NCBI GenBank assembly: GCA_028748975.1
Contig: JAQTPI010000006.1
Span: 366 to 64,365, forward strand
Length of the DNA stretch: 64,000 bases
Source: Patescibacteria group bacterium
GTDB taxonomy: Bacteria > Patescibacteriota > Patescibacteriia > UBA2196
Direction: 5' to 3'
Position numbers and translations under genes: made by a program. Within the stretch, counting starts at the first letter, position 1; the number at the start of each line of letters is the position of its first letter. The notes below the pieces were generated by a model that was given only the letters and a program-made list of their open reading frames with translations, did not search any database and was not told the DNA's origin. Below, in pieces: positions 5,626 to 37,948 of the stretch.

Positions 5626-5732
5626 AAAGACATTAAAGTAGTATAAATCTTTTTCCAAAAAGAAGCAAGAATACAAAATAAAAACCCCGTGTAATGAATT
5701 ACGCGGGGTGACACCGTGGCGATGTCTTGCGT

Positions 5733-5945
5733 TCATGTCGTGGCCGAGTTTGGCGCGAGCCAGCCGGTGAAATAGTGGGCTATCGTCATTCCCGAAAGGA
5801 AATAACACAGAAGACTCACAGATGCCCAAACACCGGCTACCGGGCAAGCGAATGCCGTCCGATTCGCGACTGCCATCATCACGGTGGCGAATAACCCTGC
5901 CACAAACGAAATGATGGCCGCGACCAAATATTGTCTCTTTCTCAT
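5733..5945 (-). CDS. small hydrophobic membrane protein (70 aa, 2 predicted TM helices)
   Basis: Strong RBS AGGAGGTG 8 nt upstream of ATG. Two hydrophobic helices. Followed on the minus strand by a hairpin plus T-run terminator near 5676-5709. Confidence 0.5.
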   Translation of the reverse strand: MRKRQYLVAAIISFVAGLFATVMMAVANRTAFACPVAGVWASVSLLCYFLSGMTIAHYFTGWLAPNSATT

Positions 5946-6167
5946 CTTTTTTTCACCTCCTTTCGTTATTTTGGCTACTTCTATAAAGCTTTTTAGCTAC
6001 TCCTATTATAGCATGCCTAACTTTTCTTGTCAACTATTAAATTGTGGGTAAGTCAAACTTTTACTATTTTTTGGCTAAAATTAGCTAAAAATTAGTAATA
6101 TTTTTTCAAATAAAAAATCGCCTCAATCAGAACGATTTTTATTATTGCTTTATTACTTTTAATGCTT

Positions 6168-6512
6168 TTATTCCTTAATTTCCAATCCCCCAATCAACCT
6201 CTCAATTCCTTCCGCCTTTTCTTCCGTGTCATCAATTTCAAAAATCAATTTGGGAATTTTCCTAAAACTTACTCGCCGATTAAGATATTCAATCAGGTCT
6301 TGATGATGAATTTGCAGTGTTTTTAGAGCGGCGCTGGATTTTTCAAAAGGCAAACAAGAAACAAGAATGCGCGCTGACTGTAAATTTTCCGCCACTTTAA
6401 TACCCACCAGCGTGACAAAAATTCCCTCGTCAAATTCTACCACCTGCTTAATCGCCTGGTTTAATTCTTCCAAAAAAATTTGATCCAATTTTTCTTGACG
6501 GTGGTGGCTCAT
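6168..6512 (-). CDS. rbfA: ribosome-binding factor A
   Basis: RbfA-like sequence pattern (R..E.L.....F..V..V.....A.V.V) and conserved position directly downstream of infB. Confidence 0.7.
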   Translation of the reverse strand: MSHHRQEKLDQIFLEELNQAIKQVVEFDEGIFVTLVGIKVAENLQSARILVSCLPFEKSSAALKTLQIHHQDLIEYLNRRVSFRKIPKLIFEIDDTEEKAEGIERLIGGLEIKE

Positions 6513-26008: not shown

Positions 26009-26242
26009 TTATTGTTTCACAAACGGCATCAGCCCCATGATGCGGGCGCGCTTAATGGCGCGGGAAGCCGCTCTTTGATGCTTGGCGCAAAGGCCGGTAC
26101 TGCGGCGCGGCACGATTCTGGCATAATGCGAAAAAAAACGCTGGAGCACTTGCGTGTCCTGCCAATCCACATTGCAGTTGTTGGCGCAATAATAGCAGTG
26201 TTTTTCTTCTGGCTGTTGTTGTGTATTATTTTTGGTAAACAT
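26009..26242 (-). CDS. rpsR: 30S ribosomal protein S18
   Basis: S18 signature CYYC...IVPRRSTGLCAKHQRAASRAIKRARIMGLMP. Confidence 0.9.
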   Translation of the reverse strand: MFTKNNTQQQPEEKHCYYCANNCNVDWQDTQVLQRFFSHYARIVPRRSTGLCAKHQRAASRAIKRARIMGLMPFVKQ

Positions 26243-26322
26243 AATATCTACTTATGACCTACAACTTACAACTTTTATCATCGGTTGTTTGTTGCCAGTT
26301 GTTAGTCGTTGGTTGTTAGTTG

Positions 26323-26820
26323 TTAAAACGGCACCACTTCTTCATCTCCCGTTACTGTTTCTGCCTCTTCCATCACCAAGGGCGCTTCTTCCACCTGAAT
26401 CACGGGGATTTCATCAATTGGCGCGACTGGAACGGCGGCCGGCTTCGGAGCAAAATTATTAGCTCCGCCAGCTGCCGCTGTGCCTGATCCCACGGCTTTT
26501 GGTCCCATCTGAAAATTTTCCGCCACCACTTCAGTGCGGTATCTTTTTACGCCGTCTTGCCCCACCCAATTCCTGGTTTGTAATCTTCCCTCCACCATCA
26601 CTGTCTGGCCTTTTTTCAAATATTGTCCGGCCACTTCTGCCAGACGCGCCCAAACCACGATGTTATGAAATTCCGCCTGTTCCTGCTTGGCGCCGGCTTT
26701 ATCGGTCCAAGTGCGGTTGGTGGCCATACTGAAAGAAGCCACTGTCTGGCCGGTAGAAGTATTGCGCACTTCTGGGTCCTGGGTCAATCGACCGATTAAA
26801 AAGACTTTGTTAAGATTCAT
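26323..26820 (-). CDS. ssb: single-stranded DNA-binding protein
   Basis: OB-fold SSB N-terminus (NKVFLIGRLTQDPEVR), Gly/Ala-rich linker and acidic tail DEEVVPF. Confidence 0.9.
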   Translation of the reverse strand: MNLNKVFLIGRLTQDPEVRNTSTGQTVASFSMATNRTWTDKAGAKQEQAEFHNIVVWARLAEVAGQYLKKGQTVMVEGRLQTRNWVGQDGVKRYRTEVVAENFQMGPKAVGSGTAAAGGANNFAPKPAAVPVAPIDEIPVIQVEEAPLVMEEAETVTGDEEVVPF

Positions 26821-26875
26821 AAATTTAATTTCTAATTCCTAATTACCAATTTCTAATGAAATGCCAAATGTTAAA

Positions 26876-26908
26876 TGTCCAAAATTCGGTTTTTGCCAAA
26901 GGCAAAAA
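26876..26908. repeat. same palindrome core, between rpsF and ssb
   Basis: TTCGGTTTTTGCCAAAGGCAAAAACCGAC. Confidence 0.6.
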
Positions 26909-26945
26909 CCGACAGATTGGAAATTAGAAATTGAAAATTGGAAAT

Positions 26946-27389
26946 TTAATTACTCACTTCTTCCCCCAAAATTTCATCCAGCTTCTTATCCAAATCCTCC
27001 ATGCTCATTTTTTTTGCTTCCGCGTGGGTAGTTGTTTTATATTCTTCTGTAGTAGTCGCCGTCTCTTTTTTAAAAATTGATCGGCGTGGTGACGCCACTG
27101 GCGCGCGTTTGGGTTTAGAAACTTGATAACGGACAACTTCTGATATTAATTTCAGCTTTTTTTCCAAATCCAAAACCATCGCGGGATTCATTTCCAGATA
27201 AAAATTCAAATAAATCCCGTTTCTGATTTTTTTAATGGCATAGGCCAGCCGTTTATGCGACGGTTCGTCAGCTCTTTTAATTTCTCCGCCTAAGCCCTTA
27301 ATTGTTTCGCCAATTTTAACACCCGCTTCTTTCACCAAATCTTCGCTCAAAGTGCCGGGTAAAATCACGCTTAGTTCGTAATTGGTCAT
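26946..27389 (-). CDS. rpsF: 30S ribosomal protein S6 (with C-terminal extension)
   Basis: S6-like N-terminal domain. Conserved rpsF-ssb-rpsR gene order. Confidence 0.85.
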   Translation of the reverse strand: MTNYELSVILPGTLSEDLVKEAGVKIGETIKGLGGEIKRADEPSHKRLAYAIKKIRNGIYLNFYLEMNPAMVLDLEKKLKLISEVVRYQVSKPKRAPVASPRRSIFKKETATTTEEYKTTTHAEAKKMSMEDLDKKLDEILGEEVSN

Positions 27390-27540
27390 AAGATCAATGC
27401 GAATTAGTAGCGAATTACCAGCGAATTATGCGAATAAGCGCAGAATAATCTGTTCGCAAAATTCGCACAAAATTCGTAAGTAATTCGCATATAAATTACT
27501 TATAAGTATCTTATCATGTCTTGAAATTCTTGGCAAGTCC

Positions 27541-28599
27541 TTAGGTATTCACGTGAAAATAAACTGTGTCCCCGTCTTTTATCTCATAATCCTTGCCTTC
27601 CAGCCGCACCAGGCCTTTTTCTTTTGCCTTAACCCAGCCGCCCACCTCCACGAATTTCTCCCAAGGGCAAACCTCTGCTCGAATAAATCCTTTAATAAAA
27701 TCAGTATGAATCACCCCGGCCGCTTCCGGCGCTTTGGCGCCTTTCACCACAGTCCAAGCGCGCGTTTCTTTTTCGCCCGAAGTCAAAAAAGTTACCAGAT
27801 TCAAAATTTCATAACTTTTAATGATTAATTTTTCCAAACCGGTGTGTTCAATCTTCAATTCGCGCAAATAATCTTTCAGCTCGGCTTCTGGCAATTCGGC
27901 CAATTCCGCTTCCAGTTTGGCATTCACAAACAGCGCGCCATCCTTGATTGTTTCCGGCGCGAATTTTTCATCCACGTTGTAGACAAAAATAATCGGCTTA
28001 GCTGTCAGCAAATTTAATTCTTTGATTATTTGTTTTTCGTCATCGTGTTGCCACTCAATTTCATTGGCCAGTTTGCCTTCATCCAATTTTTCTTTTAATG
28101 TCTTTAAAACACCTAACATTTTTAAAGAATTTTTATCACCCGCTTTGGCCTCTTTTTGTGCCGTGCTTAATCTTTTTTCCACGGTTTGCAAATCCGCCAT
28201 GGCCAATTCCAAATGAATGATGCTCTTGTCGCGCTCGGCATCCACCTCGCCTTCCACGTGAATTATATTTTTGTCTTCAAACTCGCGCAATACTTCCACA
28301 ATGGCATCAGTCTCGCGAATATGGGAGAGAAATTGGTTGCCCAGCCCCTCGCCCTGATGCGCGTTTTTAACCAGCCCCGCGATATCTACAAATTCAATCG
28401 TGGTCGGAATAATTTGCTTGGATTTGGAAATTACTGCCAGTTTTTCCAAGCGCTCATCGGGTACCTCAACCACGCCGACATTGGGATCAATGGTGCAAAA
28501 AGGATAATTGGCAATCTCAATTTGTTTTTTCGTCAGCGCCTTAAACAGGGTGGATTTGCCCACATTCGGCAAGCCGACAATTCCAATCTTAAAAGACAT
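27541..28599 (-). CDS. ychF: ribosome-binding ATPase YchF
   Basis: GIVGLPNVGKSTLF, NYPFCTIDPNVG, and a C-terminal TGS domain. 352 aa. Confidence 0.9.
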   Translation of the reverse strand: MSFKIGIVGLPNVGKSTLFKALTKKQIEIANYPFCTIDPNVGVVEVPDERLEKLAVISKSKQIIPTTIEFVDIAGLVKNAHQGEGLGNQFLSHIRETDAIVEVLREFEDKNIIHVEGEVDAERDKSIIHLELAMADLQTVEKRLSTAQKEAKAGDKNSLKMLGVLKTLKEKLDEGKLANEIEWQHDDEKQIIKELNLLTAKPIIFVYNVDEKFAPETIKDGALFVNAKLEAELAELPEAELKDYLRELKIEHTGLEKLIIKSYEILNLVTFLTSGEKETRAWTVVKGAKAPEAAGVIHTDFIKGFIRAEVCPWEKFVEVGGWVKAKEKGLVRLEGKDYEIKDGDTVYFHVNT

Positions 28600-28803: not shown

Positions 28804-29091
28804 TTAAAGCTCTAACGGATAAATTTGTATGTGATAAATCCATAAATTGGAAAAAATAATTTTCCATTCAAACATGTCCTGCCAACCAGGCCTTGATTTT
28901 TTAAACTCTTCTACTAGCTTCCAAATGTTTTCTCTATTTAAAAGTTCCTTTGCTTCTTTTTCCGCTTCTTCCAAATTTTTTGCTTTCAATGGCACCGTCA
29001 TTCCGTCTGGTTCACCCTTTATTAAATCTGCCTGGCGATTTTTGAAAGACCATTTAACCGTAAATTCAAGTTTCCATCCCGGCATTTCCAT
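28804..29091 (-). CDS. hypothetical protein (95 aa)
   Basis: Intact ORF downstream of the Ubl terminator. No family recognised. Confidence 0.35.
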   Translation of the reverse strand: MEMPGWKLEFTVKWSFKNRQADLIKGEPDGMTVPLKAKNLEEAEKEAKELLNRENIWKLVEEFKKSRPGWQDMFEWKIIFSNLWIYHIQIYPLEL

Positions 29092-29145
29092 TTATTCCTC
29101 CTTGGTTAATTTGTGTATCCTCATCTTATCTTAAGAAAAAAACAT

Positions 29146-29190
29146 TGTCAAATAAAAAATAAAAACGCCGATCACTGGTGTGATCGGCGT
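29146..29190 (-). terminator. rho-independent terminator of the Ubl gene
   Basis: Perfect hairpin CGCCGATCAC-ACCAG-TGATCGGCG followed by TTTTTATTTTTT on the minus strand. Confidence 0.8.
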
Positions 29191-29210
29191 AACTTGAACG
29201 GCTGGTATGT

Positions 29211-29507
29211 CTACCGGCCGTTGCCCTTGATGAATTTCGTCATGATGACGGTGTCGTTGGCCGACACGGGCTGGTCCAGCATCGCCATCTTGGTCTAGTC
29301 GACGAGGGTCGTATTCCACCGCAGTTCAAACTCGTCGCCACGGCCGACTACCGGCAGGTCGATTTGTTCTTTCGGCCCGCGGGCGGTATTGGCCACTTCG
29401 ATCGCTTCGCGCAGTGTCGTTCCTTCTTCCACATTGACTTCGGTCAGTCGTCCCGGGAATTTCCCCAGACGCATCGGAAAGTACCCGTATGTCCCTGTTT
29501 TCGTCAC
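29211..29507 (-). pseudogene. MoaD/ThiS-like ubiquitin-like beta-grasp protein interrupted by an in-frame TAG (29295-29297); 70 aa before the stop, 98 aa if read through
   Basis: RBS AAGGAGG then GTG at 29507. LTEVNVEEGTTLREAIEVA matches the MoaD/ThiS core. After the TAG the same frame continues with TKMAMLDQPVSANDTVIMTKFIKGNGR, which matches the MoaD C-terminal strand (xDGDxVxxxPPVSGG-like). Segment GC is about 58%. Confidence 0.55.
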
Positions 29508-29635
29508 TGTGAACCTCCTTGGTTTCCTGTTCTTGTTTGACCTCCCCAACACCACCCAATTTCTATTAATTTGCCTCTGTCATTCCCCCTTTCTTGGGCT
29601 AAGATGAGGATTTTAGATTATTTTTATTTTTGGCT

Positions 29636-29737
29636 AAAAATTAAGGCTCCACTTCACCTTAGCGTAATAAAAAAAACTTGTCAAATATTAATTAAGGTTC
29701 TACTTTACCCTAGCGCAGTAAAAAAAGTTTGTCAAAC
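29636..29737 (-). promoter_or_regulatory. two tandem copies of the cluster-specific promoter/leader module upstream of the Ubl gene
   Basis: On the minus strand: TTGACA-N17-TAAGGT and TTGACA-N17-TAGGGT, each followed by the conserved GAACCTTAA leader box. Confidence 0.55.
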
Positions 29738-30463
29738 AATGGTAAACTTTCGGCTATAAATTTGGGTCAGAGGACGCAGACCGAAAATCATCTCATTTTC
29801 CAATTCATCCTCTTCACCATCCAAAATGCTTTGCCAGCGCATCATCTGCCAGATTGCCAGACCGGACAAAATGTCCGAAGTCGGACCCACGCTGGGTTCA
29901 GACCGGCAGACAGAAGGAGTGGCATCTTCATCGGTATAATGCAGTGTCTCTTCATAACCTGCGACGTGAGCCGGATTAATGGGATTGACAACGTAAATTC
30001 TGCCCTGGTCAGCGCCCATTCTGGTTTCAATCACCAGTTTGACATTGGGTTTGTATTTCAACGAACCATTCCAAATGTCCACGCGGGATTTCATGGTGTC
30101 GGTTAAGACGAAAACCACCTCTCCCAAAGTTTGGATACCGTCCACGAATTCGTCGTGAATGGTAATTTCGGTTCCGGTTTTCAAGCGGATCCATTCCCGC
30201 ATAGCCTCAATTTTTTTCTTGCCTACATCGCTTGGAAAAAACCTGGTGTTGGGCACGTTATGGTCCACCACCACGTCTGTGTCATAAAGCTCGATATTGG
30301 GTACGCCCAGTTCGGCCACGCCCAGGGCCGCTTTGGAACCAGTGGATCCACTGCCAATTATGGTCACGAGTTTCTCACCGAATTTATAGGGTGAAAACAC
30401 ACCCAAATGTCTGTTAACATCAAGAATTATTCTTGGTGTTGGTGTCGCTGTTGTTTCCGGCAC
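29732..30463 (-). CDS. E1-like ubiquitin-activating enzyme family protein (ThiF/MoeB/HesA fold, minimal 243 aa)
   Basis: RBS AAGGAGG and GTG start. Gly-rich Rossmann loop IIGSGSTGS, LYDTDVVVDHNVPNTRFF (DxDxVxxxN.R motif), and a C...GVxGP-like catalytic loop VCRSEPSVGPTSDILSGLA. Confidence 0.7.
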   Translation of the reverse strand: MPETTATPTPRIILDVNRHLGVFSPYKFGEKLVTIIGSGSTGSKAALGVAELGVPNIELYDTDVVVDHNVPNTRFFPSDVGKKKIEAMREWIRLKTGTEITIHDEFVDGIQTLGEVVFVLTDTMKSRVDIWNGSLKYKPNVKLVIETRMGADQGRIYVVNPINPAHVAGYEETLHYTDEDATPSVCRSEPSVGPTSDILSGLAIWQMMRWQSILDGEEDELENEMIFGLRPLTQIYSRKFTIV

Positions 30464-30495
30464 GGTAACCTCCTTTTTTATTTTTAATCATGGCG

Positions 30496-31380
30496 TTAAT
30501 CGTATATGGTATTGTCTTCAAAACTGCCGCTTTTGTCAGCCAGATTGGTTCCTTGCTGAAAACCAACGGCCGCGGGGTCAGTACCGTAAGAACTGGTTTG
30601 ATAATACGGATAAACCGTTACTGGTTCCGGTTCTTTAATCACAATCTTATCTTTGATTACCTGCTGCCAATATTCGCGGCGAGCCGGATCAATCGGTTGG
30701 CGTTTGCCCAAAACTTCCCAAGGCGCATCCTCAATCAGTAAATTTTCTTCTATTAAATACAGGGTTACTTGCATCCGGCCGTCTTTATTAAAAATACACC
30801 GGATAAAATGGTCGTAGCAGTCCCCGACAAACTCATCCATTTGGTCCTCGTCCGGTCCGCTGGCAAATGTTCCCATATGAACATGGCAATGACCCCAATA
30901 GCGGATGGAGTTAAAAATCTCCGCGCCATTGGGACGGGTCAATATTTCTTGGGTAACCAACTCAGCTTGTCCACCCGGAGTCAGCTTGCATTCCGAACCG
31001 TGCACCTCTTGCCCGGGCACAAAAATCTCCTTGATGAAAAAATCTTGGCCCCGTTTCTCCACCCAACCCAAATTGCCGATTTCCACCCTCATTAAATCGG
31101 CCAGAATGAACTGGTCGTTGATAACGGTGGGGTCAAAATAGGTTATGGGAATATGCACATTTTGCGGCGGTGCGATAAAACTCACTTTTGGCACAAATTC
31201 ATGCTGTTTAAAATCTTTGGTCTTCCTGAATTTCTTTCGCCAACCCTTCCAGGTTCCTTTTTTCCAGGTTCCCTTGGTCCCGCCGCTTCCGACATAAATA
31301 ATTTTAGGCTCCTCTATTTTTTGTTCCGGTTTTGCCATCTCTGGTTTTGGGTCTGTCGCCACTTTGTCGGGCTTTGTCAT
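30496..31380 (-). CDS. JAB/MPN(+) domain metalloprotease (JAMM isopeptidase-like) with basic N-terminal extension
   Basis: Complete JAMM motif: upstream Glu (GQEVHGSE), then HCHVHMGTFASGPD, which is HxHx7Sx2D. 294 aa. Confidence 0.7.
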   Translation of the reverse strand: MTKPDKVATDPKPEMAKPEQKIEEPKIIYVGSGGTKGTWKKGTWKGWRKKFRKTKDFKQHEFVPKVSFIAPPQNVHIPITYFDPTVINDQFILADLMRVEIGNLGWVEKRGQDFFIKEIFVPGQEVHGSECKLTPGGQAELVTQEILTRPNGAEIFNSIRYWGHCHVHMGTFASGPDEDQMDEFVGDCYDHFIRCIFNKDGRMQVTLYLIEENLLIEDAPWEVLGKRQPIDPARREYWQQVIKDKIVIKEPEPVTVYPYYQTSSYGTDPAAVGFQQGTNLADKSGSFEDNTIYD

Positions 31381-31474
31381 TTCTTTTCCGTCCTTTCTTT
31401 TTTAAATCTTGGGTTAGAGGGGTTTAAATTGCGGGCGAGCGCTAGGTTTAACCCGGCGCCCGCCCCGCTGTTTT

Positions 31475-33445
31475 TTATTTTTTTGCCTTTTCTACAATTG
31501 GCCAGTTATCAATATGCTGGCCCATGGGATCGTTATAATTCGCCGATTCCAAAAAAACAATGCACATAATCAATAATGGCATGAAATCAAAACGGGCAAT
31601 CAATTGCGGTAAAACTTCTTCCATCTCGGCGCCCAGACAGGCATGGCCATCCTCAAATACGTGGGGAGCATTGTGTCCGCCTATCTTTTGCGTCAAATTA
31701 AAAAATCTGATTTGGTTGCAATCGCCATTAAGCGGAATAACAATCCGGAAAGCGCCAATCAAGTGTATTTGGTCTTTTCTCGGATGTTTGCAGAATAAAA
31801 TATCAGTATCCACTATTAACTGGTTTTTGATGCAGCTGACTTTTCTTATCTTTTCCAATTGCCGCATTTTTTCAAAATCAATGGCAAATTGCTTCCGGTA
31901 AACTCCGCCATCCTTCTTCTTGCCATCCGCCACCTCTTTTAAGGCATCGTATTTTCTAATCGCGGTCACCAGTTGGATTTGCAAACTGTTTACCCGGTTG
32001 GCCACTTCCGTCAATTCTTCCTTGGCGTCCTTAATAATTGACTCTTTATTTTGCAGACAAGTGTTGGCGTAGGCCTGTCCTTGTGCTGTCCGCATCTTGG
32101 CTTCCTGTTTTTGTCTTTCCGCTGTTGTGCTTGTTAAAAGACTGGCCACGGCTTGCATCAACTTTTTAAAAATCTTTTTATATTCTTCGTCCGCTCCCAA
32201 AATAGGGAAGGGAATATAAAGATTTCTGCCCGCTATGATTTGTCCGGCCTCTTGGCCGTCCTCATCATATATTATTTTCCCTTCGTTGGTAATCTGAAAA
32301 GATCCGCTTTTGGTTGGCAGAGGAATTCTCCAAAGCTGTTTGGGTGTTAAAAACCCCTGTCTGATGCTTTCCGTTGGCGCGGCAAAAAAATAAATATGAA
32401 ACATGTTGTCATAGCGCGGCAGGTCTCTCATCCGAAACTCGCCTCCGCCGTTATGCAAACAGATGCTCCGCCTAATCTTTGTCATTAATTCCCGGCTGAT
32501 GATGGGCGCGTAAACACGCCTGACTAATTCCAGCTCTCTGCTGTTAAAACCCCCAGAATCAATTACCATCGACCTGTCTATCTCTATGCCCTCCAGTTTT
32601 TTGGAGTCTTTCTTTTTTTCCGGTTCCACTGCTTTAACTGGCCGCCGAAACCTTTTCAGTTGGGAAAAAACTTCCGGCGCCACCACCGCTTCCAGAATTT
32701 TTCTAAAAATAGTAAGTTCTGACTCGCGGCCATAATGACACAGGTCGTGAAAAATATAAAGAGTGTTTTCGCCCACCAGCTCGGCCACCGCATATCTTTT
32801 GTCTCTAATCACTATGCCTTGGCCGCTGGGTGCGAAAGATTCATCATCACAAGCCACCCTTGTTCCCCAAATCTTCTCAGGTGTCTGGGTTTCCGTGTCA
32901 CCGCTTTCTGACGGGGCCGACCAAATGCGGATATGGAAAACATCGCCTTCAGCCGGGCTGGTATGTTTTCGATGCGGCACGCTGATGACAATTTCTGTTC
33001 CAATTTTTGGTAAAAGAATTTCTTTGGCTAATTTACGAAATCGGCTGCTGCCCTCGCCGTTCCAATCTTTGATTTTCACCTGGCAATCAGCGCCTCTGTC
33101 TTTTTTTGAATTATCAAAAATTACTCTTTGTATGATTCTTTTTTGTTCCTTGGTGATGGCCGAAGTGTTTTTCCACCATTTTAAATCATCGCCCTTGGCA
33201 TATTCCGGATCCAAACCGGTTATCTCCGCAATCTCCAGTTTAAAAACTCCGGTGATCTCGGTTGGTAATTCTGCCAAACTCATTTTTTTTAGGGCTCTTA
33301 ATCCCTGGCTTAACTGTGTTTCGTCCAAAACAATGCCTTTTTTACTGCCCATCTCAAAGTCGGCAAAAATGACCTTTTGGGCATTTAAAGCCGCTTTTTT
33401 ACTCTCGTCAATAGCTGGCAAAAAATAATTTCTCACCACTTCCAT
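31475..33445 (-). CDS. large paralog 1 (656 aa): internal duplicated domain, coiled coil, C-terminal UBC/E2-like domain with putative catalytic Cys (GHACLG)
   Basis: RBS AAGGAGG. C-terminal FRIVIPLNGD...IRFFNLTQKIGGHNAPHVFEDGHACLG...LLIMCIVFLESANYNDP aligns with the UBC-fold pattern F.L.I.FP.DYP...HPN...G.ICLDIL...LLSICSLL.DPNPDDP. Confidence 0.6.
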   Translation of the reverse strand: MEVVRNYFLPAIDESKKAALNAQKVIFADFEMGSKKGIVLDETQLSQGLRALKKMSLAELPTEITGVFKLEIAEITGLDPEYAKGDDLKWWKNTSAITKEQKRIIQRVIFDNSKKDRGADCQVKIKDWNGEGSSRFRKLAKEILLPKIGTEIVISVPHRKHTSPAEGDVFHIRIWSAPSESGDTETQTPEKIWGTRVACDDESFAPSGQGIVIRDKRYAVAELVGENTLYIFHDLCHYGRESELTIFRKILEAVVAPEVFSQLKRFRRPVKAVEPEKKKDSKKLEGIEIDRSMVIDSGGFNSRELELVRRVYAPIISRELMTKIRRSICLHNGGGEFRMRDLPRYDNMFHIYFFAAPTESIRQGFLTPKQLWRIPLPTKSGSFQITNEGKIIYDEDGQEAGQIIAGRNLYIPFPILGADEEYKKIFKKLMQAVASLLTSTTAERQKQEAKMRTAQGQAYANTCLQNKESIIKDAKEELTEVANRVNSLQIQLVTAIRKYDALKEVADGKKKDGGVYRKQFAIDFEKMRQLEKIRKVSCIKNQLIVDTDILFCKHPRKDQIHLIGAFRIVIPLNGDCNQIRFFNLTQKIGGHNAPHVFEDGHACLGAEMEEVLPQLIARFDFMPLLIMCIVFLESANYNDPMGQHIDNWPIVEKAKK

Positions 33446-33464
33446 GCTTCTTCCTCCTTTTAAG

Positions 33465-33541
33465 CTGGGTTTTTAAGGTTCATCTTCACTGTTTTTAGTG
33501 AATAGCTAACCTTAGCAAAACTAAAAAACCTTGTCAAGTAA
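33465..33541 (-). promoter_or_regulatory. promoter/leader module of paralog 1
   Basis: Minus strand: cTTGACA-N17-TAAGGT, hairpin TTCACT-N6-AGTGAA, GAACCTTAAAAACC box, AAGGAGG, ATG. Confidence 0.55.
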
Positions 33542-33601
33542 TAAAATAAATAAAAAACGGTCTGCTTTGCCAGCAGGCCGTTATCTTGAAAACATTTATT
33601 T

Positions 33602-35563
33602 TTATTTTTGTTCCGTAACTATTGGCCAGTCCGCCACCCGCTCTCCGGCGCTCGCCTGGCCCTCTGCCGTTTCCAGAAAAATAAGACACATGGTTATCAA
33701 TGGTCCAAAATCAAACCGGGCGATTAATTGCGGTAAGATTTCTTGCAGCTGGCTGCCAAAGTAAGCCTGGCCATCCGGCGCCACGTTGGGAGCATTAAAT
33801 TCGTTAACCCGCCGTGTCAGATTAAAAAATCTGATATCCTCGCAATTGCCCCAAAAAGGGATAAAAATCTGGAAAGCGCCAATCAGGCGTGTTTCTTTTT
33901 TGCTGTAGAAAAGAGTGTTGGTCTCCACTATAAGACAATCCGGGGTGAAAGTAATCTGCCTTATCTTTTCCAGTCGCCCCATTTTCTCAAAATCAGCGCT
34001 AAACTTCTCTTGGTCGCCACCCTTTCTTTTGCCCTCGGTTGCTTCCTTCAGCGCATCATGCTTTCTGATGGCCGCTATCAACTGTGTTTGAAAATTTTTG
34101 ATTTGCCTGGTAATATCCACAAACTCAGCCGCGGCATCTTTCTTGATCAAATCTTTATACTGCCAACAAATGGCGGCATAAGCTTTTCCTTTGGCTGCCC
34201 GCATTTCTTCTTCCCACTGCTGCCTTTCCGCTGCCGTACTGGTAAAAAGCCTGGCCACTTCTGCCATTAAACAGGTAAAAATCCGTTGCAATGTTTTTTG
34301 GTCGGAAAATAAAAAAAATGGAATATAAAGATTTCGGCCGCCGATAATTTGCCCGACTCTTTGTCCAGCATCATCATAAACCATTACCCCTTCCCTGGTA
34401 ATCGGGCAAGGGTTATTCCCGGCCGGCAAACTAATGCCCCATAATTTATTTGATGAAGAAAATTGTCTGCCCGCCATTGAATTGGTAAAAAATATATGAA
34501 ACACCTCGTCATAAAAAGGTAATGGCTGTTGTCTTATGCTCCTATTTTTATGCAGGCAAACGCCGCGCTTAATTTTTGCCATTAATTCCCGCGCGATAAT
34601 TGGAGCATAAACTTTTCTAGCCAAAGCGCATTCTTCTGAGCTAAACCCCGGTAATTCCATCGTCAGTGTTTTATTTATATCTATTTTTTTGCTTTCCAAT
34701 TCTTTTGATTTTGTTTCTTTTTTTACTGGAGCTGGCCGCCGAAACCTTTTCAGTTGGGAAAAAACTTCCGGCGCCACCACCGCTTCCAGAATTTTTCTAA
34801 AAATAGTAAGTTCTGACTCGCGGCCATAATGACACAGGTCGTGAAAAATATAAAGGGTGTTTTCGCCCACCAGCTCGGCCACTGCGTAGTTGTTTGTCTT
34901 GTCTTTAATAACTAGGCCAAGGCCGCTCGCTGGAAAAGATGCGTCACCGCAAGCCACTTCTGTTCCCCAGATAGTTGGGGGTGTGCGAACCTCTCTGGAT
35001 CCGCTCTTCAATGGTGCCGACCAGATGTAGATATAAAAATTATCATCTGCAACCGGTTCTTTTTGGTCTCCATGTGGCACGCTGATAAAAATGTTTGTTT
35101 TAATTCTGGGCCAAAGAATTTCTTCGGCTAGCTGGCAATAATCTTCGCTGTTACTGCGTCCGTCCCAATGATCAACTGTCACAAAACCCGACCCATCCTC
35201 CTCTTCTATTGTTTCTTCTTTTTTCAAACTCTCACCAATCTTTTCCTGTAAAAATCTCCGTTGCTCTGCCGCCAGGGTGTAGCTATTTTTGCACCACCTC
35301 AAATCATCGCCTTGGGCATATTCCGGATCCGCCCCTGTGATGTCAATGGTCAAAAGCTTGAAAGCTCCCTCAATCCCGGTGGACAGTTCCGCCAAGATTG
35401 CTTTGTTTAAAGCTCTCAATCCCTGAAGTAATTGGGTTTCGTCCAAAATAATGCCCTGTTCGCCTCCCAGTTCAAAATCGGCAAAAATGACCTTGTGGGC
35501 GTTTAAAGCTGTTTTTTGTGCCGCATTGACAGCTGCTAAAAAATAGCTTCTGACAACTTCCAT
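33602..35563 (-). CDS. large paralog 2 (653 aa): same architecture, E2-like active-site Cys/His replaced (DGQAYFG)
   Basis: 52-aa block identical to paralog 1. C-terminal domain is present but lacks the Cys and the NYNDP motif. Confidence 0.6.
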   Translation of the reverse strand: MEVVRSYFLAAVNAAQKTALNAHKVIFADFELGGEQGIILDETQLLQGLRALNKAILAELSTGIEGAFKLLTIDITGADPEYAQGDDLRWCKNSYTLAAEQRRFLQEKIGESLKKEETIEEEDGSGFVTVDHWDGRSNSEDYCQLAEEILWPRIKTNIFISVPHGDQKEPVADDNFYIYIWSAPLKSGSREVRTPPTIWGTEVACGDASFPASGLGLVIKDKTNNYAVAELVGENTLYIFHDLCHYGRESELTIFRKILEAVVAPEVFSQLKRFRRPAPVKKETKSKELESKKIDINKTLTMELPGFSSEECALARKVYAPIIARELMAKIKRGVCLHKNRSIRQQPLPFYDEVFHIFFTNSMAGRQFSSSNKLWGISLPAGNNPCPITREGVMVYDDAGQRVGQIIGGRNLYIPFFLFSDQKTLQRIFTCLMAEVARLFTSTAAERQQWEEEMRAAKGKAYAAICWQYKDLIKKDAAAEFVDITRQIKNFQTQLIAAIRKHDALKEATEGKRKGGDQEKFSADFEKMGRLEKIRQITFTPDCLIVETNTLFYSKKETRLIGAFQIFIPFWGNCEDIRFFNLTRRVNEFNAPNVAPDGQAYFGSQLQEILPQLIARFDFGPLITMCLIFLETAEGQASAGERVADWPIVTEQK

Positions 35564-35584
35564 GTTTCTGCCTCCTTTTCCATT

Positions 35585-35660
35585 AAATTTTTAAGGTCTG
35601 TTTGCTTCACTCTACTGGTGAATATTTCAGCTTAGCAAAACTTATCCCGCCTGTCAAGTT
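35585..35660 (-). promoter_or_regulatory. promoter/leader module of paralog 2
   Basis: TTGACA-N17-TAAGCT, hairpin TTCAC...GTGAA, CAGACCTTAAAAATT box, AAGGAGG. Confidence 0.55.
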
Positions 35661-35795
35661 TATTTTCTAAATAAAAATATAACAAAAAATAAAAAAACGG
35701 TCCAATAATTCGCCAGTTAGCGAATCGGACCGTTTGTTGAATTTTGAATTTTTATTATTTTTCGCTCAGTTTAAATATTTAAATCCAGACGAATC

Positions 35796-37790
35796 TTAGC
35801 TGGTTTTGCGTTTTCCTTTGTCCGCTTCCTCTTGTCCTGTTTTTACCAGCGGCCATTGATCAACATGTCTGCCGATATCATCAAGGTTCGCTGATTCCAA
35901 AAAAATAATGCACATAATAACAATTGACGTGAAATCAAAACGAGCCATCAGCTCTGGTATAATTTCATGCATCTCCCTGCCCAGACAGGCATGGCCGTCA
36001 GCATATACGTGGGGAGCGTTCATTCGGCTGTCATGCGCATTAATCAGCTGTGTCAAGTTAAAAAATCTGAGATCATTGCAGCTGCCCTTAAAAGGAATAA
36101 CGATCTGAAAAGCGCCGATCAGGCGTATTTCTTTATTAGTAGGGTGCTGGTAATAAAGAATATCAGTCTCCACAATCAGGTGGGTCTTGGTGAAAGAAGC
36201 CCATCTTATCTTGTCCAGTTGCCCTATTTTCTCAAATTCAGCGGCAAATCTCTCTTGATATAATTCTTTGCCCTCCTTTTTGTCCTCAACTACTCCTCTT
36301 AAAATATCCTGCCTTCTGTTGGCCGCTACCAATTGCGTTTGCAGATTTTTTATTTGGCTACCAGTCTCAGTCAGTTCCTGGCCGGCAGTTTCTTTTTTAA
36401 TTTTGGCAAGAATCGCCTCTTTGTAGTTTTGGCAAACACGAGCATAAGTTATTTTTTGAATTGCCATCAGCCCGGCTTCCCGCTGCTGCCTTTCGGCCGC
36501 CGTGCTCTTTAAAAGCCAGTTTACTTCTTCCAATAAACGAATAAAAAACTCTTTGTTTTCTTTGGTCTCAAAAGTTAAATAAAAAGGAAGGTAGAGATTG
36601 TTGCCATTAATGAGCCAAGCCACGACTTGGCCTTGGTTGTCATAAATCGCCCTTCCCTTGTTTAAGATCACTAGGGAGTTCTTGGGGTTATCCAATTTTA
36701 TGTTGATTCCCCAAGGCGTCGGTGGACTCAATGGCGCGTTTTTAATTGCCAGTCCCGGCGAGGCTCCCAAAAAAACATGGAACATATTATCATAAAAAGG
36801 CTGAGTTTTTTTGCCAAATTCCCCGCCATGTAAACACACGTTTCTTTTAATGACTGGGGTCAGCACCTGTTTAACTATCTTGGCTGCTTCTCCGTAAAGT
36901 CTTTCAAAAAAAATTCGTGAAGAAAAATCATTTGCGCCAGCTATGAAAACTTCTTGATCCAACCAATCAGCTGGTTTTTTTTCTTTTTCTTTCACTGCCA
37001 AGGCCTCAATAATAGCCATGGTTCTGGCGATTCCCTCTTCAAATATTCTTAACTCGTTTTCATCCCCGTTGTGGCTACAAATATCATGATGAAAATACAA
37101 ATTATTCATGCCGATTAATTCGGCTACCGCGTAGCCCGTGGCTTCATCCACCAGCGAAACTCCCAGACCACTGTCCACCGTACCAATACCACGATCTGAC
37201 ACTTCAATTCCCCAAATACTCTCCGGGGGACTCTTTGTGTTATGGCTTCCGCAACTGGGAGCGGCATGAAGGTGGATATAAAAATCCGAACCCAAAATCG
37301 GATCTGTCCAACCAGATTGTTTATGGATCTGGACCTTCTTTTTTATTTTTGGAGTTATGTTCTTCATTGCCAGCCGGGTAAAAGAATTGTCATCCGGCCA
37401 TTTCCGCCAATCTTGCCGAGCCGCCTTAATCCAATTTATTTCTCCTTCTCGCTCTTGTTCCGGCGGACATAAATAATTAAATAATAATTCCTTTGCCGCC
37501 TCCGGAATCTTCAAAATATTTTTGTACCAGTTCAATTCCTCTCCGGCTTCATAACCAGCATCGGGTTCCATCGGAACTAACAGAGTTTGATAAACTCCTC
37601 TCGCCCCAGTTGGTTGTTCCCAAAGTATGGCTTTTCGCAGCCGCAGTAAACAATGTTTAATTTGTGTCTCCTCAACCAAAATTTTTTGTCCATCTCCTGG
37701 TGTGACTCTGGAAAATTTCACGCCCTGCTGGGTTAAAAATGCCTCTTCCTCTCTGGTTACCATTAAAAGGAATTTTTTTGGTTCTTCCAT
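35796..37790 (-). CDS. large paralog 3 (664 aa): divergent member with intact E2-like motif NAPHVYADGHACLG...FLESANLDD
   Basis: Colinear with paralogs 1 and 2 at about 35-40% identity outside the conversion tract. Same promoter/leader module upstream. Confidence 0.6.
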   Translation of the reverse strand: MEEPKKFLLMVTREEEAFLTQQGVKFSRVTPGDGQKILVEETQIKHCLLRLRKAILWEQPTGARGVYQTLLVPMEPDAGYEAGEELNWYKNILKIPEAAKELLFNYLCPPEQEREGEINWIKAARQDWRKWPDDNSFTRLAMKNITPKIKKKVQIHKQSGWTDPILGSDFYIHLHAAPSCGSHNTKSPPESIWGIEVSDRGIGTVDSGLGVSLVDEATGYAVAELIGMNNLYFHHDICSHNGDENELRIFEEGIARTMAIIEALAVKEKEKKPADWLDQEVFIAGANDFSSRIFFERLYGEAAKIVKQVLTPVIKRNVCLHGGEFGKKTQPFYDNMFHVFLGASPGLAIKNAPLSPPTPWGINIKLDNPKNSLVILNKGRAIYDNQGQVVAWLINGNNLYLPFYLTFETKENKEFFIRLLEEVNWLLKSTAAERQQREAGLMAIQKITYARVCQNYKEAILAKIKKETAGQELTETGSQIKNLQTQLVAANRRQDILRGVVEDKKEGKELYQERFAAEFEKIGQLDKIRWASFTKTHLIVETDILYYQHPTNKEIRLIGAFQIVIPFKGSCNDLRFFNLTQLINAHDSRMNAPHVYADGHACLGREMHEIIPELMARFDFTSIVIMCIIFLESANLDDIGRHVDQWPLVKTGQEEADKGKRKTS

Positions 37791-37811
37791 GATTTTTACC
37801 TCCTTAAGTTA

Positions 37812-37884
37812 GGTTTTTAAAGTTCGTTTTCACTTCTTAAAGTGAGTACTTTAACTTAGCAAAATTAAAAAGAGTTGTCAAGTG
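37812..37884 (-). promoter_or_regulatory. promoter/leader module of paralog 3
   Basis: TTGACA-N17-TAAGTT, hairpin TCACTT...AAGTGA, GAACTTTAAAAACC box, AAGGAGG. Confidence 0.55.
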
Positions 37885-37948
37885 AGAAAAAATCAAAAAC
37901 CGTTCCGACACAATGTCGGAACGGCTCTTGTTTTTTGAAAAATCAAAA

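What the first reader, a model, noticed from the sequence alone, without database searches (positions are those of the whole stretch)
29146..37890. Candidate novel ubiquitin-like conjugation locus: Ubl - E1 - JAB DUB - three giant E2-fusion paralogs
The sequence shows seven genes in one minus-strand block: three ~655-aa paralogs, a JAB/MPN(+) protein with a complete HxHx7Sx2D JAMM motif plus upstream Glu, a minimal ThiF/MoeB-type E1, and a MoaD/ThiS-like beta-grasp gene closed by a strong terminator. The E1 call rests on GSGSTGS, DxDxVxxxN.R and a C...GVxGP-like Cys loop. The C-terminal ~130 aa of the paralogs align with the UBC/E2 fold landmarks (beta-strand F.I.IP..D, HPN-like NAPHV, G.ACLG catalytic-Cys position, and a LLIMCIVFLESANYNDP helix resembling LLSICSLL.DPNPDDP). 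E1 + E2 + Ubl + JAB is the component set of Bil/Bub-type and CBASS-associated bacterial ubiquitination-like systems, but here the E2 module is fused to a ~500-aa N-terminal region (a duplicated ~120-aa domain plus coiled coil) and is triplicated. I do not recognise that arrangement. I infer a transferase or defence/regulatory system in which the variable N-termini confer target specificity.
Basis: partly seen in the sequence, partly recalled or inferred. Interest (0 to 1): 0.9.

Follow-up and report, generated by a model that had tools for sequence, protein, structure and literature searches.

The report
Unannotated ubiquitin-like conjugation cassette, large E2s
A candidate-phyla (Patescibacteria) genome carries an unannotated ubiquitin-like tagging gene set, with a small tag protein, an activating enzyme, a trimming protease and three large conjugating-enzyme fusions; it belongs to a large family seen so far only in metagenomes and differs clearly from the known bacterial ubiquitin-like systems.

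Summary

An exhaustive profile search finds about 3,000 clusters of relatives (720 at E<=1e-30). No paralog matches Pfam, NCBIfam or PHROGs, and only paralog C gives sub-significant E2 matches in PADLOC. In 22 of 24 loci with enough flanking DNA, the E2 fusion is followed by JAB and E1, usually then Ubl. Hosts include Patescibacteria, Melainabacteria and a 207-kb phage contig.

- Paralog B lacks the catalytic Cys and His.
- There are six genes, not seven.
- The Ubl gene is broken by an in-frame TAG.

One addition: the family's Ubl ends in an invariant Gly-Asn, not Gly-Gly.

Best reading: an E3-independent Ubl conjugation cassette. It is not Bil, Bub or CBASS. Its biological role is unknown. 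It is a new variant of a known kind.

The parts
35796..37790 (-). Paralog A, 664 aa. N-terminal alpha/beta domain, two NREP repeats, long helix, C-terminal UBC-like domain (about 35799-36257) with an intact APHV...GHACLG active-site motif.
   Evidence: ORF; alignment; active-site columns; family HMM hits.
33602..35563 (-). Paralog B, 653 aa. Same architecture, but the UBC-like domain (about 33605-34051) is degenerate: APNV...GQAYFG, with no Cys and no His. Probably an inactive UEV-like partner.
   Evidence: Degenerate second paralogs recur in other loci.
31475..33445 (-). Paralog C, 656 aa. Modelled domains: N-terminal 1-75, NREP1 120-265, NREP2 290-440, helix 441-506, UBC-like domain 507-656 (DNA 31478-31927) with P594-H595, G600 and C603.
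30496..31380 (-). JAMM/JAB metallopeptidase, 294 aa, with a Lys-rich N-terminal tail. Carries E100, H164, H166, S174 and D177.
   Evidence: Motif read from the sequence. These residues are invariant in 32 homologues. 19 of 32 family members give weak Pfam Prok-JAB hits (best E 0.015). The window protein itself has no Pfam hit.
29732..30463 (-). Minimal single-domain E1 (ThiF/MoeB type), 243 aa. Has a GxGxxG loop, DxD...N, DTM..SR and invariant Cys186.
   Evidence: Pfam ThiF 5e-12. Family profile against the PDB: MccB 1e-9, ThiF 4e-9, PaaA, Uba1, UBA5, Cap2, BubCD. C186 aligns with the ThiF crossover-loop Cys. Invariant columns.
29639..29740 (-). Tandem 51-nt duplication (80% identical) in the E1-Ubl spacer. 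Each copy carries TTGACA-N17-TAnnnT, so this looks like a doubled promoter for the Ubl gene.
   Evidence: The function is inferred only.
29208..29507 (-). Ubl gene (beta-grasp, ThiS/SAMP-like). GTG start at 29507, or ATG at 29474. In-frame TAG at 29295-29297, then 28 more codons ending ...TKFIKGN-GR and a stop at 29208-29210. GC 57% and GC3 72% (93% after the TAG), against 43-48% in the neighbouring genes.
   Evidence: Family members hit Pfam ThiS (6e-6) and SAMP2 (1e-6). The TAG is also present in Logan assembly L002.
29165..29190 (-). Intrinsic-terminator-like hairpin (11 bp, 7 GC) followed by a T-run, closing the block.
37894..37930 (-). Terminator-like hairpin (17 bp) ending the upstream KH-domain gene. 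This is the upstream boundary of the block.
32638..32794 (-). 157-nt tract 98% identical to 34732-34888 in paralog B, against about 72% identity elsewhere. A gene-conversion tract within NREP1.

Best explanation
The block is a self-contained ubiquitin-like protein-conjugation cassette of a previously unannotated family.

Proposed mechanism. Every step below is inferred from homology and conservation; none was tested biochemically.
1. The JAB peptidase trims the Ubl precursor. The precursor has a 2-residue tail here, and a poly-Ubl or a C-terminal extra domain in relatives. Trimming exposes the conserved ...[K/R]-G-N end.
2. The minimal E1, probably a homodimer like ThiF or UBA5, adenylates that C-terminus. 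It can take the Ubl onto invariant Cys186 in the crossover loop.
3. The Ubl passes to the Cys of the UBC-like domain at the C-terminus of the large proteins (C603 in paralog C).
4. No E3-like gene is conserved. The large proteins would therefore act as E2/E3 hybrids. Their divergent N-terminal domains (N-terminal domain plus one or two NREP repeats) would choose the target. The 66-residue helix probably dimerises them. Cys-less paralogs such as B may pair with active ones, as Mms2 does with Ubc13.
5. JAB may also reverse conjugation.

The biological role is not shown. I favour a conflict role (anti-phage, or phage against host) over housekeeping regulation, at roughly 45:30. The reasons are the patchy spread across Patescibacteria, Melainabacteria and phages, and the arrays of diverging paralogs.

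In this particular genome the Ubl ORF is interrupted by a TAG. The cassette therefore works only if that codon is read through. Otherwise it is freshly inactivated.
For: Components.
- E1: Pfam ThiF; profile hits to MccB, ThiF, Uba1 and UBA5; catalytic-type Cys aligned with the ThiF Cys and invariant across the family.
- JAB: the complete E...HxHx7Sx2D motif is invariant, with weak Prok-JAB hits in 19 of 32 members.
- Ubl: ThiS and SAMP2 hits in family members.

Linkage.
- The order E2 fusion(s), JAB, E1, Ubl holds in 22 of 24 loci with enough DNA.
- No other gene family recurs in the neighbourhoods. This supports an E3-independent four-part system.

Target-specificity idea.
- A and C are 59% identical in the E2 domain but 31-37% in the N-terminal domains.
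- NREP has no invariant polar residues, so it is probably a binding domain.

Active/inactive pairs.
- The window (A and C active, B dead) and L001, L004, L006, L020, L037, L038, L045, L049, L050 and L051 combine active paralogs with paralogs that lack the Cys. L035, L039 and L041 carry a second paralog that keeps the Cys but has lost the His.

Spread.
- Patescibacteria MAG, Buchananbacteria and Melainabacteria, an IMG/VR 207-kb contig whose neighbours are phage nucleotide-metabolism PHROGs, and 50 metagenome loci.
Against: - No biochemical or genetic data exist for any member.
- The E2 assignment rests on a predicted structure and a short motif. Sequence profiles do not reach Pfam UQ_con or Prok-E2 families or PDB E2 sequences. 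The PADLOC E2 hits are sub-significant (E 0.019).
- The Ubl ends in Gly-Asn rather than Gly. This is unprecedented for E1-E2 cascades and may mean different chemistry.
- In this window the Ubl ORF has a premature TAG.
- The locus sits among housekeeping genes (rpsF-ssb-rpsR, ychF, KH protein), not in a recognisable defence island. No PADLOC system is called.
- Dimerisation and E2/UEV pairing are conjecture.
Confidence: 0.7

Rival explanations
1. MccB-like chemistry instead of, or on top of, a classical thioester relay. The E1 adenylates the invariant C-terminal Asn of the Ubl. The Asn side chain then cyclises to a succinimide. The product would be a nucleotidylated (phosphoramidate) or isoAsn/Asp-linked Ubl, and the UBC-like proteins would serve as acceptors or adaptors.
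For: - In about 35 Ubl genes the beta-grasp domain ends [K/R]GN. In most, the stop codon follows the Asn directly. Tails beyond the Asn vary (G, S, A, E, GR, or a whole domain), so the Asn looks like the mature end rather than a cap.
- The E1 family profile's best PDB hit is MccB (1.1e-9), marginally above ThiF (4.4e-9) and PaaA.
- MccB is an E1-like enzyme that adenylates the C-terminal Asn of MccA and proceeds through a succinimide (PMC6385645, PMC4010828).
Against: - The MccB-ThiF score difference is 2 bits, and the MccB hit covers only the Rossmann part.
- The E1 here has no N-terminal peptide-clamp domain (243 aa in total).
- Invariant Cys residues on both the E1 (C186) and the E2 domain argue for thioester transfer.
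- No exporter, immunity or MccD/E-like genes recur in the neighbourhoods.
- The Asn could instead be the P1' residue of a JAB cut after Gly.
Confidence: 0.12
2. Sulfur-carrier pathway. The Ubl would be a ThiS/MoaD/CysO/TtuB-type thiocarboxylate carrier, activated by the E1 and trimmed by a Mec+/QbsD-like JAB, serving cofactor, cysteine or tRNA-thiolation chemistry rather than protein tagging.
For: - The closest sequence families of the Ubl and the E1 are ThiS/SAMP2 and ThiF.
- The trio of JAB, E1 and beta-grasp protein is the CysO-Mec+ or QbsE-QbsD component set (established knowledge).
Against: - No rhodanese, cysteine desulfurase, synthase or thiolase gene recurs beside the cassette.
- A UBC-fold protein with an HPN-like motif and Cys is always present.
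- The C-terminus is GN, not GG.
- Poly-Ubl precursors exist.
- The cassette occurs on a phage contig.
Confidence: 0.05
3. In this genome the cassette is a decaying remnant. The Ubl is a pseudogene (nonsense mutation) and paralog B has lost its active site, so nothing is conjugated here, whatever the family does elsewhere. This is not exclusive of the best explanation for the family.
For: - The in-frame TAG at 29295-29297 removes the last beta-strand and the GN end.
- It is the only interrupted Ubl among about 35 examined.
- TAG is an ordinary, if rare, stop in this window (4 of 37 long ORFs).
- No tRNA-CUA is found in the window.
Against: - E1, JAB and paralogs A and C keep every conserved catalytic residue.
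- The 28 codons after the TAG are intact, in frame, keep the IKGN motif and have 93% GC3, so any inactivation is very recent.
- Dead E2 paralogs are a normal feature of the family.
- The Ubl keeps a doubled promoter-like element and a strong terminator.
- Only 64 kb of the genome was searched for a suppressor tRNA.
Confidence: 0.35
4. The large proteins are not enzymes. They would be structural or scaffold proteins whose C-terminal domain is a non-catalytic UEV/RWD-like module on a coiled coil, as in kinetochore RWD proteins. They would be the substrates or receptors of the Ubl rather than its E2.
For: - The coiled-coil-plus-RWD arrangement resembles kinetochore proteins (established knowledge).
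- Cys-less paralogs exist.
Against: - Active E2s outrank RWD and UEV hits throughout.
- The Cys and the preceding P-H are kept in about 97% of representatives, in exact register with the E2 active site. Such conservation is not expected for a scaffold.
Confidence: 0.06

Closest known systems
Bil (bacterial ISG15-like) systems, Type I/II: BilA Ubl, BilB E2, BilC JAB, BilD E1 (operon type 6d of Iyer et al. 2006)
   Same: Four separate genes for Ubl, E2, JAB peptidase and E1, with no E3. In Bil the E2 is proposed to recognise the target itself (PMC11601596). Both systems have Cys-based E1 and E2.
   Different: - BilD is a tandem IAD-AAD-CYS E1. Here the E1 is a 243-aa single adenylation domain with a crossover-loop Cys.
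- The E2 here is fused to 300-500 aa of N-terminal domains plus a long helix, and is often multiplied.
- It matches no Prok-E2 Pfam family.
- The Ubl ends Gly-Asn.
- Gene order is E2, JAB, E1, Ubl.
Bub (6E/DUF6527) systems
   Different: - Bub uses fusions (Ubl-E2 with JAB-E1, or E2-E1), a DUF6527 serine protease, and Ser/Tyr oxyester intermediates with no catalytic Cys.
- Here all genes are separate, no fifth conserved gene exists, and Cys is invariant in the E1 and near-invariant in the E2.
Type II CBASS Cap2 (E2-E1 fusion) and Cap3 (JAB)
   Same: E1, E2 and JAB modules. PADLOC Cap2 'E1-E2' models hit the E1 Rossmann region (1e-10), and PADLOC E2 models hit paralog C weakly (E 0.019).
   Different: There is no CD-NTase or effector. 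The E2 and E1 are not fused. A dedicated beta-grasp Ubl is present. The Cap2 hits cover only residues about 28-105 of the E1.
Eukaryotic E2/E3 hybrid giants UBE2O and BIRC6
   Different: There is no sequence relationship outside the UBC fold. The N-terminal domains (NREP) are unrelated. The UBC domain here is C-terminal after a coiled coil, and the active-site Asn is replaced by His.
MccB/MccA (microcin C) and other minimal E1-like enzymes (ThiF, PaaA)
   Same: A small bacterial E1-like adenylating enzyme. The substrate C-terminus is Asn, as in MccA (PMC6385645).
   Different: The substrate is a 70-90 aa beta-grasp protein, not a heptapeptide. The E1 has no peptide-clamp domain. E2-like and JAB partners are present. 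No export or immunity genes are present.

Membership tests
UBC/E2 superfamily (fold level) | UBC alpha/beta fold: alpha1, a four-stranded antiparallel sheet, then C-terminal helices | tested here: met
UBC/E2 superfamily (fold level) | Active site: HPN motif followed 8 residues later by the catalytic Cys | tested here: met
   (A/H)-P-H-[VI]-x3-G-x-[AP]-C-L-G aligns in register with UBE2D2 H75-P-N-I-x3-G-x-I-C85-L-D (hhalign). The Asn is replaced by His. Cys is present in 152 of 157 representatives. In the window it is met in A and C, not in B.
UBC/E2 superfamily (fold level) | Significant sequence match to Pfam UQ_con or Prok-E2_A-E, or to PDB E2 sequences | tested here: not met
   No such hit for the three paralogs or for 11 family C-terminal domains. 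The family profile against PDB sequences finds no E2. PADLOC E2 gives only E 0.019.
E1 / ThiF-MoeB superfamily | Rossmann adenylation domain with a GxGxxG loop, Mg/ATP-binding Asp residues, and a crossover-loop Cys | tested here: met
   Pfam PF00899 at 5e-12, above its cutoff. Profile hits to MccB, ThiF, Uba1 and UBA5 from 1e-9 to 1e-7. G37, G39, G42, D61, D63, D122 and C186 are invariant. C186 aligns with the ThiF NCRTAGVVGP Cys.
JAMM/MPN+ (JAB) peptidases | E ... H-x-H-x7-S-x2-D metal site | tested here: met
   E100, H164, H166, S174 and D177 are present in the window protein and invariant in 32 homologues. The Pfam Prok-JAB match is only sub-threshold (19 of 32 members, best E 0.015). There is no PDB sequence hit. 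The fold was not modelled.
ThiS/MoaD/SAMP-type beta-grasp Ubl | Beta-grasp domain recognisable by family models | tested here: met
   11 of 26 family Ubls hit Pfam ThiS (best 6e-6) and 4 hit SAMP2 (1e-6). The window's own copy scores nothing significant and was assigned through alignment to the family.
ThiS/MoaD/SAMP-type beta-grasp Ubl | C-terminal Gly-Gly (or Gly) as the activated end | tested here: not met
   The domain ends [K/R]-G-N in essentially all of about 35 genes, and the stop follows directly in most. Whether the Asn is retained after processing cannot be tested here.
Bil system | [quoted passage not shown] | tested here: not met
   The E1 is 243 aa with a single adenylation domain. 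The Bil description is from PMC11601596.
Bil system | Stand-alone small E2 (BilB) | tested here: not met
   The E2 domain is the C-terminal ~150 aa of proteins of 290-1100 aa with N-terminal domains and a coiled coil. I did not compare directly with BilB sequences.
Bub (6E/DUF6527) system | Ubl-E2 and JAB-E1 (or E2-E1) fusions plus a DUF6527 serine protease | tested here: not met
   All four components are separate genes. No further gene family recurs in 50+ loci. No DUF6527 hit was found in the window proteins.
Bub (6E/DUF6527) system | Oxyester chemistry: Ser in the E2 and Tyr in the E1 in place of Cys | tested here: not met
   Cys is conserved at the E2 position (152 of 157) and the E1 Cys186 is invariant.
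Type II CBASS (Cap2/Cap3) | E2-E1 fusion next to a CD-NTase and an effector | tested here: not met
   PADLOC Cap2 models match only E1 residues about 28-105. No CD-NTase or effector hit was found and no such gene recurs.
Microcin C-type (MccB) peptide-nucleotide biosynthesis | E1-like enzyme with an N-terminal peptide-clamp domain, a heptapeptide ending in Asn, and export/immunity genes | tested here: not met
   Only the C-terminal Asn and the E1 Rossmann similarity are shared. The E1 lacks an N-terminal domain. The substrate is a beta-grasp protein. No accessory genes recur.

The most novel reading that the evidence does not exclude
The invariant Gly-Asn end of the Ubl is the mature C-terminus. 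The E1, whose best PDB sequence match is marginally MccB, would then activate an Asn carboxylate. That chemistry is prone to succinimide formation. The family would conjugate its Ubl through a chemistry not seen in any ubiquitin-like system: a succinimide-mediated or isoAsn/Asp linkage, or a stable nucleotide adduct. Giant dimeric E2/UEV pairs would serve as built-in E3s. This would make it a fourth, mechanistically distinct branch of prokaryotic and phage ubiquitination, concentrated in Patescibacteria.
Probability: 0.15. Interest if true: 0.9.

Novelty: new variant of a known kind. Interest (0 to 1): 0.72.

Why it matters
Only three families of bacterial E1/E2-type conjugation systems have been characterised: Type II CBASS, Bil and Bub. 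Each revealed unexpected biochemistry and a link to antiviral immunity.

This cassette would add a fourth family. It is large (about 3,000 clusters at 50% identity) and has so far been seen only in metagenome-derived sequences. It is invisible to Pfam, NCBIfam, PADLOC and PHROGs.

It occurs in Patescibacteria, the candidate phyla radiation, where almost nothing is known about protein modification or defence, and also in huge phages.

Its features are directly testable:
- E2 domains fused to candidate substrate-binding domains, with no E3.
- Recurrent pairs of active and dead E2 paralogs.
- A minimal E1.
- A Ubl that ends in Gly-Asn.

The E2 domain keeps the canonical HPN...Cys spacing despite having no detectable sequence homology. 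That bears on how the eukaryotic E2 active site arose.

Tried and rejected
- Word-indexed protein search. It found only 4 relatives of paralog C, and the same 4 with a 79-sequence profile. This understated the family; the exhaustive HMM search was needed.
- NREP as a degenerate E2 domain. hhalign of NREP against the E2 domain gives probability 0.1%. Rejected.
- The search for related loci with the broad alignment failed because no stretch was conserved enough. With the tight C-terminal alignment it found nothing in viral contigs.
- No homologues in deposited phage genomes or plasmids. The single weak hit, in Mammaliicoccus phage phi6255, lies in a 2,472-aa hypothetical protein near tail genes and is most likely coiled-coil noise.
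- Suppressor tRNA. Only tRNA-Glu and tRNA-Leu are in the window.
- Rfam scan of the block. One far-sub-threshold hit, taken as chance: BTnc060 at 37 bits against a gathering score of 229.
- Six literature searches found no description of this cassette. The library lacks most subscription-journal papers, so prior description cannot be excluded.

Full report
**What is in the window.** The window comes from a Patescibacteria metagenome-assembled genome; paralogs C and B are NCBI proteins PHT40_02965 and PHT40_02970. On the minus strand, between two strong terminator-like hairpins (37930-37894 and 29190-29165), lie six genes:
- three paralogs: A 37790-35796 (664 aa), B 35563-33602 (653 aa), C 33445-31475 (656 aa);
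- a 294-aa protein (31380-30496);
- a 243-aa protein (30463-29732);
- a small gene at about 29507-29208.

The flanks are housekeeping genes. Downstream are a 95-aa ORF, then ORFs that by their sequences look like ychF, rpsF, ssb and rpsR (my reading, not tested). Upstream is a KhpA-type KH protein.

**The small components.**
- E1. The 243-aa protein is a minimal E1. It matches Pfam ThiF at 5e-12. A profile of 26 family members hits MccB (1e-9), ThiF (4e-9), PaaA, Uba1, UBA5, Cap2 and BubCD in the PDB. The glycine loop, the Asp residues and Cys186 are invariant. Cys186 aligns with the Cys of ThiF's NCRTAGVVGP crossover loop.
- JAB. The 294-aa protein has no Pfam hit of its own. It carries E100 and H164-x-H166-x7-S174-x2-D177, all invariant in 32 homologues. 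Nineteen of the 32 homologues give weak Prok-JAB matches.
- Ubl. The small gene aligns with a family of beta-grasp proteins. Family members hit Pfam ThiS (6e-6) and SAMP2 (1e-6).

**The large proteins.** AlphaFold2, run on a 79-sequence alignment, gives a confident model of paralog C (pLDDT 85). Its parts are:
- a small alpha/beta N-terminal domain (residues 1-75);
- two copies of a ~140-aa domain that I call NREP (120-265 and 290-440);
- a 66-residue helix (441-506);
- a C-terminal alpha/beta domain.

The family motif (A/H)PH[VI]xxxGx[AP]CLG lies in exact register with HPNIxxxGxICLD of UBE2D2. The Cys is present in 152 of 157 cluster representatives and the His in 153 of 157.

Sequence methods alone do not see this relationship. 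PADLOC E2 models reach only E 0.019.

Paralogs A and C have the intact site. Paralog B reads APNV...GQAYFG and is catalytically dead.

**NREP.** It has no detectable relatives in PDB sequences. It is unrelated to the E2 domain by hhalign. It has no invariant polar residues. I therefore read it as a binding or scaffold domain.

**The family and its neighbourhood.** The word-indexed search made the proteins look almost unique. An exhaustive HMM search of 1.84 billion cluster representatives then found 3,064 hits at E<=1e-3 and 720 at E<=1e-30. Most are about 445 aa with a single NREP.

I fetched 54 loci from genomes, metagenomes and viral contigs and scored them with HMMs for the five modules. 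Of the 24 loci with at least 2 kb after the last E2-fusion gene, 22 carry JAB and E1, and 20 carry a Ubl. The order is almost always E2 fusion(s), JAB, E1, Ubl. No other gene family recurs. There is thus no conserved E3, effector or biosynthetic enzyme.

Arrays of paralogs are common (L020, L033, L051). A long active E2 fusion next to a shorter degenerate one recurs in many loci.

Named or recognisable hosts are:
- Patescibacteria (the window);
- Candidatus Buchananbacteria and a Melainabacteria MAG;
- a locus next to what look like rpsF, ssb and efp in L038 (my reading);
- a 207-kb IMG/VR contig whose neighbouring genes are phage nucleotide-metabolism PHROGs.

Deposited phage genomes and plasmids have no homologues.

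1. The Ubl C-terminus. In about 35 genes the domain ends [K/R]-G-N. In most, the stop codon follows the Asn directly. The rest have variable tails (G, S, A, E, GR in the window, or a second domain) or are poly-Ubl with each repeat ending RGN. An invariant residue followed by variable tails is the usual signature of a mature terminus. I therefore lean, at about 60%, to Asn being the activated residue. The alternative is a JAB cut after Gly with Asn as a fixed P1' residue. The Bub Ubl is cleaved to expose a C-terminal Gly, and to my knowledge the Ubls of other E1-dependent cascades also end in Gly. The one E1-like enzyme known to work on a C-terminal Asn is MccB (PMC6385645, PMC4010828). MccB is marginally the best PDB sequence match of the E1 profile. 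This is a lead, not a test.

2. The interrupted Ubl ORF. An in-frame TAG at 29295-29297 falls in a loop insertion. The last strand and the IKGN-GR end follow in frame. The same TAG is in an independent Logan assembly. TAG is a normal, rare stop in this window, and no suppressor tRNA lies within the 64 kb. The gene has 57% GC and 72% GC3 (93% after the TAG), against 43-48% GC in its neighbours. It sits behind a tandem 51-nt promoter-like duplication. It is either a very recent nonsense mutation or is read through. I cannot tell which.

**Mechanism.** The evidence shows the component set, the conserved catalytic residues, the UBC fold and the tight gene linkage. The rest is inferred.
- JAB matures the Ubl and possibly removes it from targets.
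- The E1 adenylates the Ubl and takes it onto Cys186.
- The Ubl passes to the Cys of the UBC domain.
- The large proteins act as E3-independent E2s. Their N-terminal domains would select targets; these are 31-37% identical between A and C, against 59% for the E2 domain.
- The long helix dimerises the large proteins, perhaps pairing active subunits with dead ones in the manner of Ubc13-Mms2.
- A 157-nt tract 98% identical between B and C shows that the paralogs exchange sequence by gene conversion.

The biological role is open. Patchy distribution across distant lineages and phages, together with arrays of diverging paralogs, suggests genetic conflict. The housekeeping surroundings and the absence of known defence genes do not support that.

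**Comparison with known systems.** The cassette works like Bil: separate Ubl, E2, JAB and E1 genes, no E3, and Cys chemistry. It fails Bil's defining E1 architecture and its small stand-alone E2. It is not Bub, because it has no fusions, no DUF6527 protein, and Cys rather than Ser/Tyr. It is not Type II CBASS. In architecture the large proteins recall UBE2O and BIRC6.

I found no paper describing the cassette. The searchable library is incomplete, so prior description cannot be excluded.

**Verdict.** The locus belongs to a large, unannotated family of ubiquitin-like conjugation cassettes and is a new variant of a known kind. My confidence in the conjugation-cassette reading is about 0.7. The interest score is 0.72.

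Noticed in passing
window 29295-29297 (minus strand), within the Ubl gene 29208-29507: An in-frame TAG splits the Ubl ORF. The 28 codons after it keep the frame, the conserved IKGN end and 93% GC3. The whole gene has 57% GC in a 43-48% GC neighbourhood. The cause could be recent pseudogenisation, readthrough or recent transfer; this is unresolved.
   Followed up: partly
window 29639-29740 and 29121-29162: A 51-nt tandem duplication (80% identical) carrying TTGACA-N17-TAnnnT lies upstream of the Ubl gene. A third related copy sits just after the Ubl terminator, in front of the 95-aa ORF 28804-29091. This looks like a reused promoter module.
   Followed up: partly
window 32638-32794 and 34732-34888: A 157-nt tract is 98% identical between paralogs C and B, while the rest of the genes are about 72% identical. 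This is a gene-conversion tract inside NREP1.
   Followed up: yes
window 26009-28599; L038 4584-6538: In the window, ORFs that by sequence look like ychF, rpsF, ssb and rpsR lie just downstream of the cassette. In the unrelated metagenome contig L038, the cassette lies just after ORFs that look like rpsF, ssb and efp. This may be coincidence or a shared insertion region in Patescibacteria.
   Followed up: no
L001 6260-7006; L004 2959-3471; L041 1580-2206: These are poly-Ubl genes with two or three head-to-tail beta-grasp repeats, each ending RPVRGN. They resemble polyubiquitin precursors. In L001 a 1.2-kb stretch with no long ORF (5017-6260) precedes the gene.
   Followed up: partly
L005 8445-9098; L007 4508-5245; L024 5202-6233; L040 3594-4691: In these loci the Ubl gene continues after the GN motif into a 100-240 aa extension. 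In L005, L007 and L024 the extension looks like a second, weaker beta-grasp-like segment. The JAB would have to cut after the first domain.
   Followed up: no
L042 5098-8019; L048 6453-9428 (also L044, L045, L049): A subfamily of paired E2 fusions: a long copy with ACLG plus a ~360-aa copy with GRSCLH or GRSSLH. No JAB, E1 or Ubl lies within about 7 kb downstream. These are the only exceptions to the conserved neighbourhood.
   Followed up: no
L001 2243-4126 and 7165-9069; L004 3630-5534: The Melainabacteria-type large E2 fusions begin with a hydrophobic stretch that looks like an N-terminal membrane anchor (for example TLALAGTGVFIIAGLLAF). The window paralogs have none.
   Followed up: no
L023 4120-4374 and 5136-5456: Two Ubl genes whose last 30 residues are identical flank the JAB gene in one locus.
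   Followed up: no
window 29054-29194 (+): A weak Rfam match to Bacteroides sRNA BTnc060 (37 bits against a gathering score of 229, E 0.006). It overlaps the terminator and promoter region and is almost certainly chance.
   Followed up: no
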